Assembly (NCBI GenBank): GCA_964652835.1
Contig: CAZZCB010000002.1
Coordinates: 584-64,583, forward strand
DNA length: 64,000 nt
From: an uncultured Candidatus Saccharibacteria bacterium
GTDB lineage: Bacteria; Patescibacteriota; Minisyncoccia; Phycocordibacterales; CSBR16-119
Reading direction: 5' to 3'
Each line of letters begins with the position of its first letter. The stretch's first letter is position 1. Of this stretch, positions 26,149-29,112 are shown one piece after another. The notes under the pieces are model-generated. The model saw only the letters and a program-made list of their open reading frames with translations. It had not been told where the DNA came from and did no database searches. Both the position numbers and the translations under genes were made by a program.

Positions 26149-29112
26149 ATGGCAAAAGACTATAACCACAAAGAAATAGAACCGAAATGGCAGAAATTCT
26201 GGGAAGAAAATCACGTTTATAAAACAGAAGAAAATGGAAGTAAACCAAAACAATACATCTTAGATATGTTTCCATATCCTTCGGGGGCGGGACTTCACGT
26301 TGGCCACCCTCGCGGATACATCGGTTCTGACGTTCTTTCTCGTATGCGAAGAATGCAGGGCTTCAACGTTCTTCACCCGATGGGCTTTGACGCTTTCGGT
26401 CTTCCGGCTGAACAATACGCAATCCAAACTGGTGAGCATCCATCTGTTATCACAGAAAAAGCGATAGAGACATATAAAAAACAACTAAGCCTAATTGGTC
26501 TTTCGTATGATTGGTCTAGAGAAGTGGAGACGATAGATCCAGAGTACTACAAATGGACACAGTGGATTTTCCTAAAACTTTACGATTCTTATTTTGATGA
26601 AAAAGAAGGTAAAGCAAAACCTATCTCAGATCTTACCCTACGATTTGAAAAAGAAGACCCTTCTTGGAATTCAAAATCAGAAAAAGAAAAAGAGGATTTG
26701 CTGATGAATTACCGTTTGGCTTATGAAGGTTACAGTGAGGTGAACTGGTGTCCAGAGCTTGGCACAGTTTTGGCGAACGACGAAATAGTTGATGGTCCTG
26801 ACGGTAAACCTGTTTCAGAACGAGGCGGTTTTCCTGTTGAAAAGAAAAATATGCGTCAGTGGTTCCTGCGAATCACCGCGTACGCAGACAGACTTTTGTC
26901 TGGGCTTGAAACTGTATCTTGGCCAGAACACATAAAAGAAATTCAAAAGAACTGGATAGGGAAATCAGAAGGAGCTGAGATTGAATTTGCTTTTGCGGAA
27001 ACACCAGAGCATAAAATAAAAGTATTTACGACTCGCCCAGAAACTATTTTCGGTGCGACGTTTATTGCGGTGTCGGCCGGATATGCAAATGAGTGGCTTA
27101 AAAATGATTGGAACCCAAGCGATGAAATAAAAAACTATATTTCAAAAACTTTAAAAGAGAATGAAAACACCGACTTTAAAGAAAAAGAAAAAACTGGAGT
27201 TTGTGCTGACTTTGAAGTAGTAAATCCTGCGACAGGAGAAAATATTCCTGTTTGGATTACAAACTATGTTTTAGACGGAGTTGGAACTGGCGCGATAATG
27301 GCTGTTCCCGCACATGATGAAAGAGACTTTGAATTTGCAAAGAAGTTTGGGCTACAAATTAAACAAGTTATTGCACCAAGTTTTGTTGGGGATGGGATTA
27401 ACGCCCCGAGAGAGGGTGTTGAGACGATCGAAAGAAAAACCGTAACTGCTGTTATAAAAAATCCTAAAAATAACTTATATTTAGTTCTTAAAGAGAAAGA
27501 CAATAATGTTTTTGTTGGTGGCGGAGTAGACGACGGTGAAAGTGTAGAAGATGCTGTTAAAAGAGAGATTGTTGAAGAGACTGGATATAAAAATATTGAG
27601 ATAAAAACAAAAATGTTTGAGCATTTATTTGCTCATGGTTTTAGACATACAAAACAATTAAATCAAAAGACAGACGATACATTCTTCTTTATTGAGTTGT
27701 TAGACGAAGATAAAGTTGAAAGTGAAGCTGACACGGAAAGACATAATGTTTTGTGGGTCTCTGAGGGTGAAATAGATAAGGTTGTAACATGGGAGCACCA
27801 TAAATTTTTCTGGAATCTTTGGAAAAACGGAAAAATATTTGATGGAGAAGGTGTGCTGGTTAATTCAGCAGAATTTAATGGCCTAACGTCAGAAGAAGCA
27901 AAATCAAAAATCACAGAATTCGTGGGAGGGAAAATGGTTATGAAATACAAAATGCGTGATGCTATTTTTGCACGACAAAGATATTGGGGTGAGCCAATTC
28001 CACTTAAGCGTGTGGACGGTTTGATTAATCCTCTTTCTGAAAACGAGCTCCCACTAGAGCTTCCAAACGTTTCTTCATATAAACCGGCGGGGAATGGTGA
28101 ATCTCCACTTGCAGGCGTTTCTGAATGGGTAGAAAAAGGTTTTGAAACAAATACGATGCCTGGCTGGGCAGGATCTTCTTGGTATTTTTTGCGATATATG
28201 GATCCGAAAAACAGCCAAGCTTTTGCCGGAAAAGATGCGGTGAAATATTGGCAAGATGTGGACGTGTATGTTGGCGGCGCAGAACATGCGACAGGGCACC
28301 TTTTGTATTCACGTTTTTGGCATAAAGTTTTAAAAGATTTGGGATATGTTCCGACTGAAGAACCTTTTAAACTTTTGAAAAACCAAGGACTTATACTCGC
28401 AAGCGACGGAAGAAAAATGTCTAAGCGATGGGGAAATGTAGTGAACCCAGATGAGATGGTGGACCGTTTCGGTGCGGACTCTTTTAGACTTTATGAAATG
28501 TTTATCGGGCCTTTCGAACAATACACTTCTTGGAACACAGACGGACTTGTGGGAACAAGAAGATTTTTAGAACGTGTATGGAGAGCGAAAGAAAGAATCG
28601 GAGAAGAAAATAAAGAGGTTGATATTTTGGTAAATAAAACTATCAAGAAAATCACGGATGATATAGAAAATTTCAGATTTAATACTTCTGTTTCTTCGAT
28701 GATGATTTTGGTAAATAAAATGGAAGAAGCACCATCTTTTTCAAAAGAAAACTATTTAGATTTCCTAAAAATTCTTGCGCCATTTGCTCCGCATATGACA
28801 GAAGAACTTTGGCAAGAACTCGGAGAAGTTCGCGCCTTAAAGGATGCTGCGCGAACCGATTTTGCTAAATCGTCAATCCATCTTTCTGATTGGCCAAAAG
28901 CTGACGAATCAAAACTAAAAGATGAAAAAGTAAAAATAGCTGTTCAGGTAAACGGAAAAGTTCGCGACGAAATAGAAATCGCCCCTGACGCTTCTGAAGA
29001 AGAAGTTAACGATTTGGTTTTATCACGTCCTATTATTCAAGACTTCGTCCGTGAAGAAAAAATCAAAAAGTTTATTTACGTAAAAGGTAAGATAGTGAAC
29101 ATCGTTATCTAA
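26149..29112 (+). CDS. leuS: Leucyl-tRNA synthetase carrying a Nudix-hydrolase domain inserted in the CP1 editing domain.
   Basis: '[16 protein letters not shown]' (HIGH-class), editing motif '[18 protein letters not shown]', 'KMSKRWGNV' (KMSKS). The inserted about-160 aa contain a canonical Nudix box '[24 protein letters not shown]'. Confidence 0.93.
   Translation: [987 protein letters not shown]

What the first reader, a model, noticed from the sequence alone, without database searches (positions are those of the whole stretch)
27370..27850. Nudix hydrolase domain inserted into the CP1 editing domain of leucyl-tRNA synthetase
LeuRS (26149-29112, 987 aa) is about 130-180 aa longer than typical bacterial LeuRS. 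The excess lies immediately after the conserved editing-site motif '[24 protein letters not shown]' and before the canonical sequence resumes ('[19 protein letters not shown]'). The insert contains a perfect Nudix box, [24 protein letters not shown] (G-x5-E-x7-REUxEExGU), with the surrounding alpha/beta/alpha Nudix-fold-length sequence. A pyrophosphohydrolase fused to an aminoacyl-tRNA synthetase editing domain is not a standard architecture. It could act on mis-activated adenylates, Ap4A or 8-oxo nucleotides.
Basis: seen in the sequence. Interest (0 to 1): 0.65.

Follow-up and report, generated by a model that had tools for sequence, protein, structure and literature searches.

The report
Swappable Nudix enzyme nested in LeuRS
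An otherwise normal bacterial leucyl-tRNA synthetase carries a complete, apparently active Nudix pyrophosphatase plugged into a surface loop of its proofreading domain, and in related bacteria this guest enzyme is lost, replaced or swapped like a cassette.

Summary

The insert is not a chimera. 96 of 118 close LeuRS homologues, mostly labelled Patescibacteria or Paceibacterota, carry a Nudix at the same site, and the catalytic glutamates are invariant.

Two new results stand out.
- The insert behaves as a laterally exchanged cassette. A syntenic leuS that is 91% identical in the core carries a Nudix only 24% identical. A second syntenic leuS has none. A third, 83% identical in the core, carries a 92% identical cassette with about 3-4-fold lower synonymous divergence than its flanks. 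Omega is 0.10.
- Related LeuRS host other guest enzymes: extra Nudix copies, Ham1/ITPase, Ser_hydrolase, GNAT and DUF559, at three or more further sites.

The best reading is an autonomous nucleotide pyrophosphohydrolase nested in LeuRS and dispensable for leucylation. The substrate is unknown. No description was found in the searchable literature.

The parts
26149..29112 (+). leuS: bacterial-type leucine-tRNA ligase, 987 aa, host protein
   Evidence: The ORF is. TIGR00396 scores 900.3 bits against a cut-off of 548.4. Pfam finds tRNA-synt_1, tRNA-synt_1_2 and Anticodon_1. The best PDB sequence and fold matches are T. thermophilus, E. coli and N. gonorrhoeae LeuRS.
26296..26307 (+). HIGH motif (HVGH, aa 50-53) of the synthetic site
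   Evidence: Read from the sequence. These columns are invariant in 118 homologues.
26587..26715 (+). Second, smaller lineage-specific insertion (aa 147-189) in the catalytic domain relative to T. thermophilus LeuRS
   Evidence: query 146/190 corresponds to Tth 145/148. The segment is conserved in the family consensus. Function unknown.
26947..27378 (+). CP1 editing domain, N-terminal part (aa 267-410). It includes the T-rich motif TTRPET (nt 27028-27045) and [15 protein letters not shown] (nt 27283-27327)
   Evidence: PF13603 matches aa 267-411, profile positions 1-143 of 185. G379, T380, G381, H389 and D390 are invariant, and T294 and T295 are at least 90% conserved.
27379..27843 (+). Nudix cassette (aa 411-565): N-terminal extension, Nudix fold and two C-terminal helices, inserted in a CP1 surface loop
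27433..27798 (+). PF00293 NUDIX match (aa 429-550)
   Evidence: 53.1 bits, E 4e-14, profile positions 3-127 of 134.
27517..27588 (+). Nudix box [24 protein letters not shown] (G-x5-E-x7-REUxEExGU), the catalytic and metal-binding helix
   Evidence: Position. G458, E473, E476, E477 and G479 are invariant, and G459, E464 and R472 are at least 90% conserved, across 85 sequences. The pattern is found in most of the 96 insert-bearing homologues.
27844..27948 (+). CP1 editing domain, C-terminal part (about aa 566-600), resuming at [13 protein letters not shown]
   Evidence: Query 563 onward aligns to Tth 376 onward. This is the second PF13603 stretch.
28414..28428 (+). KMSKS motif (KMSKR, aa 756-760)
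   Evidence: Position. M757, S758 and K759 are invariant.
28630..29001 (+). Anticodon-binding domain (PF08264, aa 828-951)

Best explanation
The gene encodes a functional bacterial LeuRS. Its CP1 editing domain carries a complete, catalytically competent Nudix pyrophosphohydrolase in a surface loop between strand QIKQVI and GVLVNS. This guest is the equivalent of a whole free-standing Nudix protein of about 155 aa.

The guest is an autonomous enzyme, not part of the aminoacylation or editing mechanism. LeuRS works without it, since close syntenic relatives lack it. Free-standing homologues of the cassette exist. In the same lineage, other small enzymes are nested in other LeuRS loops: additional Nudix copies, Ham1/ITPase, Ser_hydrolase, GNAT and DUF559.

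The cassette is kept under purifying selection. It is gained, lost and replaced by recombination in the highly conserved flanking CP1 sequence.

The inferred reaction is Mg2+-dependent hydrolysis of a nucleoside (poly)phosphate-X compound. The best guess is house-cleaning of non-canonical NTPs or dinucleoside polyphosphates. LeuRS would serve mainly as an expression and tethering scaffold.

Shown: the identity of host and guest, motif integrity, the fold, the distribution, dispensability, purifying selection and cassette exchange. Inferred: catalytic activity, substrate class, and lack of mechanistic coupling to editing.
For: Host intact:
- TIGR00396 scores 900 bits.
- The HIGH, KMSKS, T-rich and GTG...AHD motifs are present and invariant or near-invariant.
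- The full-length AF2 model has pLDDT 89.7 and superposes on E. coli LeuRS at a target-normalised TM-score of 0.82.

Guest is a real Nudix domain:
- PF00293 scores 53 bits.
- The cassette alone gives pLDDT 92 and pTM 0.86.
- The catalytic glutamates are invariant across 85 sequences.
- dN/dS is 0.10 in the cassette against 0.09-0.10 in the core.

Dispensable:
- 22 of 118 close homologues have only 3-52 residues at the site.
- L085 is syntenic (CAP, DUF642/PG_binding, leuS, murJ) and has no Nudix.

Autonomy:
- Free-standing proteins of 161-179 aa with the same N-terminal extension are 30-37% identical to the cassette.

Other guests in LeuRS:
- Three Nudix copies in P0126; a Nudix at a third site in P0154; GNAT in P0048; DUF559 in P0094; alpha/beta hydrolase in P0119 and P0155.
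- A full-length Ham1/ITPase in L013 (E 2e-56) and a Ham1 in L068; Ser_hydrolase in L002, L008, L012, L018, L023 and L068.
- The same Nudix family also sits inside an M17 peptidase (P0185) and another class I aaRS fragment (P0146).

Cassette exchange:
- Window vs L086: core aa identity 91%, flank nucleotide identity 82-97%, cassette aa identity 24% and nucleotide identity 32-60%. Same residue at 36/141 cassette codons vs 733/808 flank codons, p = 1e-58.
- Window vs L084: core 83%, cassette 92%. dS is 0.38 in the cassette vs 1.2-1.6 in the flanks. Third-position identity is 0.77-0.93 exactly across aa ~405-568. Fisher p = 5.6e-7.
- The 11 insert-bearing members of the window's LeuRS clade carry cassettes from at least 6 different 40%-identity clusters. 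Their nearest cassette is often in a LeuRS only 63-65% identical in the core.

Substrate class:
- The nearest curated models are RppH, NudI (nucleoside triphosphatase), MutT and YtkD, all below cut-off.
- The profile against PDB sequences ranks 2azw and 3smd (unknown function) first, then Ap4A hydrolases, a MutT (3fk9), NudI and CTP pyrophosphohydrolase.
- Ham1, a non-canonical NTP pyrophosphatase, is nested in the same host protein in related lineages. This fits a house-cleaning theme.
Against: - No enzymatic data exist, and substrate specificity of Nudix enzymes cannot be read reliably from sequence or fold.
- The nearest structure (2azw) has no determined function.
- Autonomy is inferred, not measured.
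- The Nudix subfamily is overwhelmingly found in LeuRS. Nearly all of the best 150 representatives are LeuRS or LeuRS fragments.
- Nudix domains were inserted at three or more different LeuRS sites.
- Cassettes occur at the same CP1 site in LeuRS of distantly related MAGs labelled Clostridia or Bacilli, whose nearest LeuRS lack them.

The last three points could mean a specific functional affinity between Nudix and LeuRS rather than passive nesting. The sharp coincidence of recombination breakpoints with the cassette edges, and the coexistence of very divergent cassette types, could reflect selection (a conflict role) rather than neutral exchange.
Confidence: 0.6

Rival explanations
1. By-product clearance in cis. 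The Nudix is functionally coupled to synthetase chemistry. It hydrolyses dinucleoside polyphosphates (Ap4A, Ap3A and related) that form when the enzyme-bound aminoacyl-adenylate reacts with ATP or other nucleotides, and it is tethered to LeuRS to act at the source.
For: - The profile search against PDB sequences ranks Ap4A hydrolases 3i7u (E 2.4e-10) and 1f3y (3.4e-10) just after two uncharacterised proteins.
- An aromatic residue (F498, or Y in most cassettes) 18 residues after the box, followed by K502, is conserved in most cassettes. From memory, this resembles a reported ApnA-hydrolase marker.
- Nudix was recruited repeatedly into LeuRS and into at least one other class I aaRS.
- Established knowledge: aaRS are the main cellular source of Ap4A.
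Against: - No curated Ap4A-hydrolase model reaches its cut-off.
- K502 and neighbouring residues are not conserved in the divergent cassette types, so the cassettes may not share one substrate.
- Close relatives do without the cassette.
- Unrelated guests (Ser_hydrolase, GNAT, DUF559) in the same host suggest nesting is not specific to adenylate chemistry.
- From memory, LeuRS is not among the strongest Ap4A producers.
Confidence: 0.15
2. Conflict or immunity cassette. The hypervariable, laterally exchanged guest enzymes protect LeuRS or its tRNA against nucleotide-based attack. Examples would be destroying synthetase-targeting aminoacyl-nucleotide mimics, or removing toxin-added pyrophosphate or nucleotides from the tRNA CCA end held by CP1.
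For: - Presence/absence polymorphism, replacement by very divergent alleles (24% identity in a 91% identical host) and lateral transfer with breakpoints at the cassette edges are typical of genes under diversifying or balancing selection.
- GNAT and serine-hydrolase guests occur in the same proteins. From knowledge, these recall the MccE and MccF enzymes that detoxify aminoacyl-adenylate antibiotics.
- CP1 naturally binds the tRNA 3' end (established knowledge).
- A free-standing mini-CP1-Nudix gene lies next to TraG/T4SS and IstB genes in L001.
Against: - There are no specific matches to defence-system models. Only generic Nudix-level hits appear in PADLOC (26.6 bits) and PHROGs.
- Known aaRS-inhibitor mimics lack a diphosphate linkage for a Nudix to cut (knowledge).
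- All 96 cassettes are acidic to neutral (net charge -13 to 0, median pI 5.4). This is not what is expected of an RNA-end-binding module.
- The Ham1 guest fits house-cleaning better than conflict.
Confidence: 0.1
3. tRNA/RNA 5'-end pyrophosphohydrolase. The Nudix acts like RppH or NudC on a 5'-triphosphate or nucleotide cap of tRNA-Leu or another RNA, using LeuRS as the RNA-binding platform.
For: - The best NCBIfam hits are RNA pyrophosphohydrolase models (PRK00714.1-3 at 33.8 bits; YtkD at 25.7 bits).
- Pfam gives a weak Nudt16-like hit.
- The free-standing mini-CP1-Nudix gene is clustered with a CYTH (triphosphate tunnel) protein.
Against: - All those scores are far below the curated cut-offs (118-154 bits).
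- The cassettes are acidic.
- Mature tRNA 5' ends are monophosphates (knowledge).
- The cassette is dispensable in close relatives.
Confidence: 0.07
4. Non-catalytic role. The Nudix fold serves as a nucleotide-sensing, regulatory or purely structural module of CP1.
For: From knowledge, non-enzymatic Nudix domains are known (for example NrtR and CFIm25). High pLDDT across both junctions suggests a fixed connection to CP1.
Against: - The complete catalytic signature (REUxEE glutamates and box glycines) is invariant or near-invariant across highly diverged cassettes that share little else.
- A structural role is hard to reconcile with frequent loss and replacement.
Confidence: 0.04
5. Artefact or chance. 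The Nudix box is fortuitous, or the insert is an assembly chimera.
For: None found.
Against: - PF00293 has E 4e-14, and the fold is confirmed.
- An identical protein is present in the NCBI-derived collection (P0004).
- The same architecture appears in about 100 independent assemblies from different sources.
- Purifying selection acts in frame.
Confidence: 0.01

Closest known systems
Canonical bacterial LeuRS (T. thermophilus 1H3N/2BYT; E. coli 4AQ7/4ARC)
   Same: The class I catalytic core with HIGH and KMSKS, the CP1 editing domain with T-rich and GTG...AHD motifs, and the anticodon-binding and C-terminal domains are all present. It meets TIGR00396. The model superposes at a target-normalised TM-score of 0.82.
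   Different: A 155-aa Nudix enzyme replaces a 12-residue CP1 loop (Tth 364-375). There is an extra insertion of about 43 aa at aa 147-189. There is no counterpart of Tth 581-636.
Free-standing Nudix protein 2AZW (Enterococcus faecalis Q836H1), a MutT/nudix family protein
   Different: 2AZW is an independent protein, not nested. Identity is only 18%. Its function is listed as undetermined in the Nudix clan survey (PMC5389931), so it gives no substrate.
Characterised Nudix house-cleaning and ApnA enzymes (NudI, MutT, CTP pyrophosphohydrolase, Ap4A/Ap6A hydrolases, RppH)
   Different: All curated subfamily models score far below their cut-offs, so the cassette belongs to none of them.
IleRS carrying an N-acetyltransferase domain (NCBIfam NF040702 'ileS_w_GNAT')
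   Same: It is a curated example of a class I editing synthetase carrying an extra enzyme domain. GNAT guests also occur in LeuRS of this lineage (P0048).
   Different: Both host and guest differ. I know this family only from its NCBIfam title and did not examine where its GNAT sits.
Bifunctional NadM-Nudix (NMN adenylyltransferase / ADP-ribose pyrophosphatase; NCBIfam NF003786)
   Same: A HIGH-motif nucleotidyltransferase is fused to an active Nudix domain in one polypeptide.
   Different: It is an end-to-end fusion of two enzymes of one pathway (knowledge), not a domain nested in a loop. The match here is insignificant (13.5 bits).
Inteins and homing elements in conserved sites of essential genes
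   Same: The cassette inserts next to an extremely conserved motif of an essential gene. Its distribution among close relatives is sporadic. The phylogeny of the insert is incongruent with that of the host.
   Different: The cassette has no Hint/intein domain and no splicing-junction residues. It stays in the mature protein and is under purifying selection as an enzyme. There are no terminal repeats or target duplications at the DNA level.

Membership tests
Bacterial leucine-tRNA ligase (TIGR00396 leuS_bact) | Whole-protein score above the curated equivalog cut-off | tested here: met
   900.3 bits against a cut-off of 548.4.
Bacterial leucine-tRNA ligase (TIGR00396 leuS_bact) | Class I signature motifs HIGH and KMSKS | tested here: met
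   HVGH at aa 50-53 and KMSKR at aa 756-760. The columns are invariant in 118 homologues.
Bacterial leucine-tRNA ligase (TIGR00396 leuS_bact) | CP1 editing domain with the threonine-rich motif and the conserved GTG...HD aspartate | tested here: met
   PF13603 scores 188.6 bits. TTRPET is at aa 294-299 and [15 protein letters not shown] at aa 379-393. D390 is invariant.
Bacterial leucine-tRNA ligase (TIGR00396 leuS_bact) | Leucylation of tRNA-Leu and hydrolysis of mischarged tRNA | not testable with these tools
   Needs biochemistry.
Nudix hydrolase superfamily (PF00293) | Pfam score above the gathering threshold | tested here: met
   53.1 bits in the full protein and 56.9 bits for the insert alone, against 21.1.
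Nudix hydrolase superfamily (PF00293) | Nudix box G-x5-E-x7-R-E-U-x-E-E-x-G-U | tested here: met
   [23 protein letters not shown] at aa 458-480. The glutamates are invariant across cassettes.
Nudix hydrolase superfamily (PF00293) | Alpha/beta/alpha Nudix fold | tested here: met
Nudix hydrolase superfamily (PF00293) | Divalent-cation-dependent pyrophosphohydrolase activity | not testable with these tools
   Inferred only from motif integrity and purifying selection.
Specific Nudix subfamilies (RppH, MutT, NudI, YtkD, ADP-ribose pyrophosphatase, NAD+ diphosphatase, NudE/NudK) | Score above the NCBIfam equivalog cut-off | tested here: not met
   The best is RppH PRK00714.1-3 at 33.8 bits against 118. 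NudI scores 26.6 against 95, MutT 26.2 against 97.9 and YtkD 25.7 against 154.4.
Intein / homing element | Hint domain and splice-junction residues (N-terminal C/S/T; C-terminal HN followed by C/S/T) | tested here: not met
   There is no Hint/intein Pfam hit. The junctions read ...QVIA|PSFVG... and ...[12 protein letters not shown].
DNA transposon-like insertion | Terminal inverted repeats or target-site duplication at the insert boundaries | tested here: not met
   Only short, scattered repeats occur inside 27250-27950, and none brackets the insert.
Known anti-phage defence proteins (PADLOC) | Specific match to a defence-system model | tested here: inconclusive
   Only weak matches to candidate models were found: PDC-S07 at 26.6 bits and PDC-M11A at 17 bits. 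These are consistent with generic Nudix similarity.

The most novel reading that the evidence does not exclude
The CP1 loop of LeuRS in Patescibacteria, and in some low-GC MAGs labelled Bacillota, is a recombination hot-spot. It holds a diverse repertoire of catalytically active Nudix cassettes that is exchanged between lineages. Other LeuRS loops hold Ham1, Ser_hydrolase, GNAT and nuclease guests. On this reading the repertoire is maintained by balancing or diversifying selection, because the guests act in cis as guards of the synthetase or its tRNA. They would destroy nucleotide-type toxins aimed at LeuRS, or repair toxin-modified tRNA 3' ends presented by CP1. That would make an essential translation enzyme a platform for a previously unrecognised, modular protection system.
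Probability: 0.12. Interest if true: 0.9.

Novelty: new variant of a known kind. Interest (0 to 1): 0.66.

Why it matters
Bacterial aminoacyl-tRNA synthetases are usually regarded as architecturally conservative. Extra domains are mostly a eukaryotic feature and are rarely enzymes.

Here an essential synthetase hosts a complete second enzyme inside its proofreading domain. In related organisms the same synthetase hosts up to three Nudix copies plus ITPase, serine hydrolase, acetyltransferase or nuclease guests.

The guest is exchanged between near-identical host genes like a cassette. This gives a natural system for several questions:
- how domains are inserted into, tolerated by and moved between essential proteins;
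- how ultra-small genomes package housekeeping enzymes;
- whether physical tethering of nucleotide-sanitising enzymes to a synthetase has a functional pay-off.

There are also practical consequences. The inserts cause LeuRS of this lineage to be under-annotated ('class I tRNA ligase family protein'). They can also distort LeuRS-based phylogenies and length filters.

Tried and rejected
- **Chance match or chimera.** Rejected.
- **Intein or protein splicing.** There is no Hint domain and no junction residues.
- **Transposon-like DNA insertion.** No terminal repeats or target duplication.
- **Assignment to a curated Nudix subfamily.** All NCBIfam equivalogs are far below cut-off. The closest structure, 2AZW, has no known function.
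- **Defence or phage libraries.** Only generic Nudix-level hits.
- **Pre-transfer editing of aminoacyl-adenylates by the Nudix.** Rejected on chemistry (knowledge): there is no diphosphate linkage.
- **RNA-binding character of the cassette.** All 96 cassettes are acidic or neutral.
- **Literature.** Eight full-text searches combined LeuRS, leucyl-tRNA synthetase, aminoacyl-tRNA synthetase or tRNA synthetase with Nudix, Patescibacteria, CPR or Parcubacteria. They found no description of this architecture. The large Nudix clan survey does not mention tRNA or synthetases.

Things that did not work:
- The search for related loci with the diverse cassette alignment found no stretch conserved enough to search with.
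- The afdb50 fold library was unavailable.
- The Palencia 2012 LeuRS-tRNA paper is not held.
- Model coordinates are not exposed, so I could not measure distances between the Nudix site and the editing site, synthetic site or tRNA.
- The window's own organism could not be named. P0004 is identical but carries no name, and the best species-representative match is only 51% identical over the query segment.

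
Full report
**1. Observation**

The window contains an ORF at 26149..29112 (+) of 987 aa. It is a bacterial-type leucine-tRNA ligase. TIGR00396 scores 900.3 bits against a cut-off of 548.4. Pfam finds the class I catalytic domain, the LeuRS editing domain PF13603 and the anticodon-binding domain.

Pfam also finds PF00293 NUDIX at aa 429-550 (53.1 bits against a gathering score of 21.1, E 4e-14). PF13603 is split into two stretches around it.

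Against T. thermophilus LeuRS (1h3n), query 190-409 aligns to Tth 148-363 and query 563-752 to Tth 376-580. About 153 residues therefore sit where Thermus has 12, inside the CP1 editing domain. Close homologues that lack the insert have as few as 3-4 residues there (P0010, P0016, P0028). This fixes the insert at aa ~411-565, nt 27379-27843. It also shows that the two ends of the insert must be spatially adjacent.

The Nudix box [24 protein letters not shown] is at aa 457-480 (nt 27517-27588). It is the only Nudix-box match in the six-frame translation of the window.

The host motifs are intact: HVGH (aa 50-53), KMSKR (756-760), TTRPET (294-299) and [15 protein letters not shown] (379-393).

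**2. Fold**

A full-length AlphaFold2 model built on 118 homologues has mean pLDDT 89.7 and pTM 0.82. Ten-residue pLDDT blocks are 73-97 (all but one at least 88) across the insert and 89-94 at both junctions.

The model's best PDB matches are LeuRS structures. The best fit is to E. coli LeuRS in the aminoacylation conformation, with a target-normalised TM-score of 0.82. The host fold is therefore not disturbed.

The insert is therefore a whole small Nudix protein, including its N-terminal extension and C-terminal helices. Model coordinates are not exposed by the tools. The position of the Nudix active site relative to the editing pocket, synthetic site or tRNA could not be measured.

**3. Distribution**

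A search with the full protein returned an identical sequence (P0004, NCBI-derived) and about 120 close homologues. In an alignment of 118 of them, 96 carry an insert of more than 90 residues at the same site and 22 do not. Where sources give a name, it is mostly Patescibacteria, Paceibacterota or Pacebacteria.

An exhaustive HMMER search with the insert alone gave 602 hits at E up to 1e-3. Nearly all of the best 150 are LeuRS or LeuRS fragments.

A scan of one genome per species found about 29 loci with the Nudix at this site. They include:
- MAGs labelled Patescibacteria, Paceibacterota, Parcubacteria, Moranbacteria, Falkowbacteria, Adlerbacteria or 'Saccharibacteria';
- low-GC MAGs labelled Clostridia, Bacilli, Bacillota or Bacillales.

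In the low-GC group, the LeuRS clusters with insert-less LeuRS of the same label. For example, L010 is 80-81% identical in the core to L036 and L046, which have 27-31-residue loops.

The Nudix box is perfectly matched in most cassettes. G458, E473, E476, E477 and G479 are invariant, and G459, E464 and R472 are at least 90% conserved. The editing-site residues are equally conserved in LeuRS with and without the insert.

**4. The insert behaves as a cassette**

This was the main new result.

A neighbour-joining tree of the LeuRS core shows the insert to be almost universal in a large clade about 55% identical to the window protein, with three sporadic absences. It is patchy in the window's own clade.

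Three relatives could be compared at the DNA level.
- **L085 (P0012).** It has the same gene order as the window (CAP-domain protein, DUF642/PG_binding protein, leuS, murJ). It has an unrelated 26-residue loop instead of the Nudix.
- **L086 (P0006).** Also leuS-murJ. It is 91% identical in the core protein and 82-97% identical in nucleotides on both sides. Identity collapses to 24% (aa) and 32-60% (nt) across aa ~401-575. The same residue occurs at 36/141 cassette positions against 733/808 flank positions, p = 1e-58.
- **L084 (P0005).** This shows the opposite pattern. The core is 83% identical and the cassette 92%. Third-codon-position identity is 0.77-0.93 exactly over aa ~405-568, against about 0.3-0.7 in the flanks. 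dS is 0.38 in the cassette against 1.2-1.6 in the flanks. Among conserved residues, identical codons are 0.82 in the cassette against 0.61 in the flanks, p = 5.6e-7.

dN/dS is 0.10 in the cassette, the same as in the core (0.09-0.10).

Among the 11 insert-bearing members of the window's clade, the cassettes fall into at least 6 different clusters at 40% identity. Their nearest cassette is often in a LeuRS only 63-65% identical in the core: P0013 with P0077 at 67%, and P0008 and P0022 with P0085 at 59-62%.

So the cassette is under purifying selection as a protein. It is also lost, replaced and transferred between leuS genes, with breakpoints within about 10-15 codons of its edges. The likely mechanism is recombination in the extremely conserved flanks ([15 protein letters not shown]... 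and ...NSxEFNGLxSEEAK).

No terminal repeats or target duplications bracket it. It has no intein features.

**5. LeuRS of this lineage hosts other guests**

BLAST mapping and Pfam scans show several further cases.
- Some LeuRS carry two or three Nudix domains. The extra copies lie before CP1 (about window aa 256-287) or near aa 665, as in P0126 and P0154.
- Other guest enzymes occur: GNAT (P0048), DUF559 nuclease (P0094), alpha/beta or Ser_hydrolase (P0119, P0155, L002, L008, L012, L018, L023, L068), and Ham1/ITPase (L013, full-length match, E 2e-56; L068).
- The same Nudix family is also nested in an M17 aminopeptidase (P0185) and in another class I synthetase fragment (P0146).
- Free-standing proteins of 161-179 aa with the same N-terminal extension are 30-37% identical to the cassette.
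- There is also a family of free-standing proteins of 263-290 aa. Each consists of a degenerate C-terminal piece of CP1, the Nudix and a short CP1 tail. In two contigs the gene sits in a conserved four-gene cluster with a CYTH protein.

**6. How it most likely works**

*Shown:* a complete LeuRS; a complete Nudix domain with an intact catalytic signature; purifying selection; dispensability; lateral exchange.

*Inferred:* the Nudix is an active Mg2+-dependent pyrophosphohydrolase working independently of aminoacylation and editing, with LeuRS as scaffold. Four observations support this:
- close syntenic relatives lack it;
- free-standing homologues exist;
- unrelated small enzymes are nested in the same host;
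- one of those guests, Ham1, is a classic non-canonical-NTP pyrophosphatase, which gives a house-cleaning theme.

The substrate cannot be assigned. All curated Nudix subfamily models are far below cut-off: RppH 33.8 bits against 118, NudI 26.6 against 95, MutT 26.2 against 97.9. The nearest structure has no known function. The next-nearest are Ap4A/ApnA hydrolases, NTP pyrophosphatases and diphosphoinositol/ApnA phosphohydrolases. My working guess is non-canonical NTPs or dinucleoside polyphosphates.

Hydrolysis of aminoacyl-adenylates is unlikely on chemical grounds.

The cassettes are uniformly acidic. This argues weakly against an RNA-end substrate.

Some evidence keeps a coupled or conflict-related function alive:
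- this Nudix lineage is strongly biased toward LeuRS;
- Nudix domains were inserted at several LeuRS sites;
- cassettes appear at the same CP1 site in distant LeuRS lineages;
- very divergent cassette types coexist, with sharp exchange boundaries.

**7. Comparison with what is known**

The host is a member of bacterial LeuRS and the guest is a member of the Nudix superfamily. All testable defining features were met for both.

The guest is not a member of any curated Nudix subfamily. The element is neither an intein nor a transposon.

Known relatives of the idea are synthetases with appended or inserted domains (for example NCBIfam's IleRS-with-GNAT family), end-to-end Nudix fusions such as NadM-Nudix, and lineage-specific CP1 insertions.

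I found no description of a Nudix nested in a synthetase editing domain, or of its cassette-like exchange. The comprehensive Nudix clan survey does not mention tRNA or synthetases. The sequences themselves are already in public databases with both Pfam domains precomputed.

I therefore rate it a new variant of a known kind rather than categorically new.

**8. Verdict**

It is more interesting than a simple fusion because of the cassette dynamics and the multiplicity of guests. The function remains to be determined experimentally.

Noticed in passing
window 26587-26715 (LeuRS aa 147-189): A second lineage-specific insertion of about 43 aa in the catalytic domain relative to T. thermophilus LeuRS. 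It is conserved in the family consensus and its function is unknown.
   Followed up: no
window ~28405-28415 (LeuRS aa 752-756): There is no counterpart of T. thermophilus residues 581-636. From memory, that segment holds the leucine-specific domain. The alignment jumps from query 752/Tth 580 to query 756/Tth 637.
   Followed up: no
L013:2843-6922, L068:2408-6010, L002, L008, L012, L018, L023; proteins P0048, P0094, P0119, P0155: LeuRS of related MAGs host other nested enzymes. These are Ham1/ITPase (between the catalytic and anticodon-binding domains, or before CP1), Ser_hydrolase/alpha-beta hydrolase, GNAT acetyltransferase and a DUF559 nuclease. They occupy at least three sites other than the CP1 loop.
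   Followed up: partly
proteins P0124, P0126, P0129, P0139, P0151, P0154, P0174, P0175: Some LeuRS carry two or three Nudix domains. The extra copies sit before CP1 (about window aa 256-287) or near window aa 665.
   Followed up: partly
L001:6001-9641 and L082:5734-9447: Free-standing proteins of 263-290 aa consist of a degenerate CP1 C-terminal piece, a Nudix and a CP1 tail. At least 13 clusters exist, for example P0002 and P0003. In two 27-28% GC contigs the gene lies in a conserved four-gene cluster with two unknown proteins (~420 aa and ~340 aa) and a CYTH protein. In L001, TraG/T4SS and IstB genes lie upstream.
   Followed up: partly
proteins P0185 and P0146: The same Nudix lineage is nested in an M17 (leucyl) aminopeptidase that also carries two GNAT domains. 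It is also nested in a fragment of another class I aaRS that is only about 30% identical to LeuRS.
   Followed up: no
L010, L015, L017, L022, L026 (genome contigs): Low-GC (26-29%) MAGs, four of the five labelled Clostridia, Bacilli, Bacillota or Bacillales (L022 only 'uncultured bacterium'), have a Nudix at the same CP1 site. L010 is 80-81% identical in the core to insert-less L036 and L046. L026 groups with Peribacillus and Leuconostoc LeuRS. L015, L017, L022 and L026 share a distinct cassette type. The taxonomic labels were not verified.
   Followed up: partly
window 27450-27750: GC content dips to 0.30-0.34 inside the cassette, against 0.37-0.44 in the rest of leuS. GC skew is strongly positive there. 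This fits a different history, or weaker constraint, for this segment.
   Followed up: no
window 12608-26051: A run of large predicted surface or secreted proteins lies upstream of leuS. They carry FG-GAP, fibronectin-III, Ig-like, CAP and PG_binding_1 domains. UvrB and UvrA are at 1512-6867, and murJ starts 3 nt after leuS (29115). The CAP - DUF642/PG_binding - leuS - murJ order is conserved in L085; L086 keeps leuS-murJ and L084 keeps CAP-leuS.
   Followed up: partly
proteins P0041, P0044, P0064, P0065, P0076, P0108: NCBI names Nudix-bearing LeuRS only 'class I tRNA ligase family protein', whereas the insert-less P0019 and P0032 are named as LeuRS, although P0029, also insert-less, gets the generic name. 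The inserts appear to cause under-annotation.
   Followed up: no
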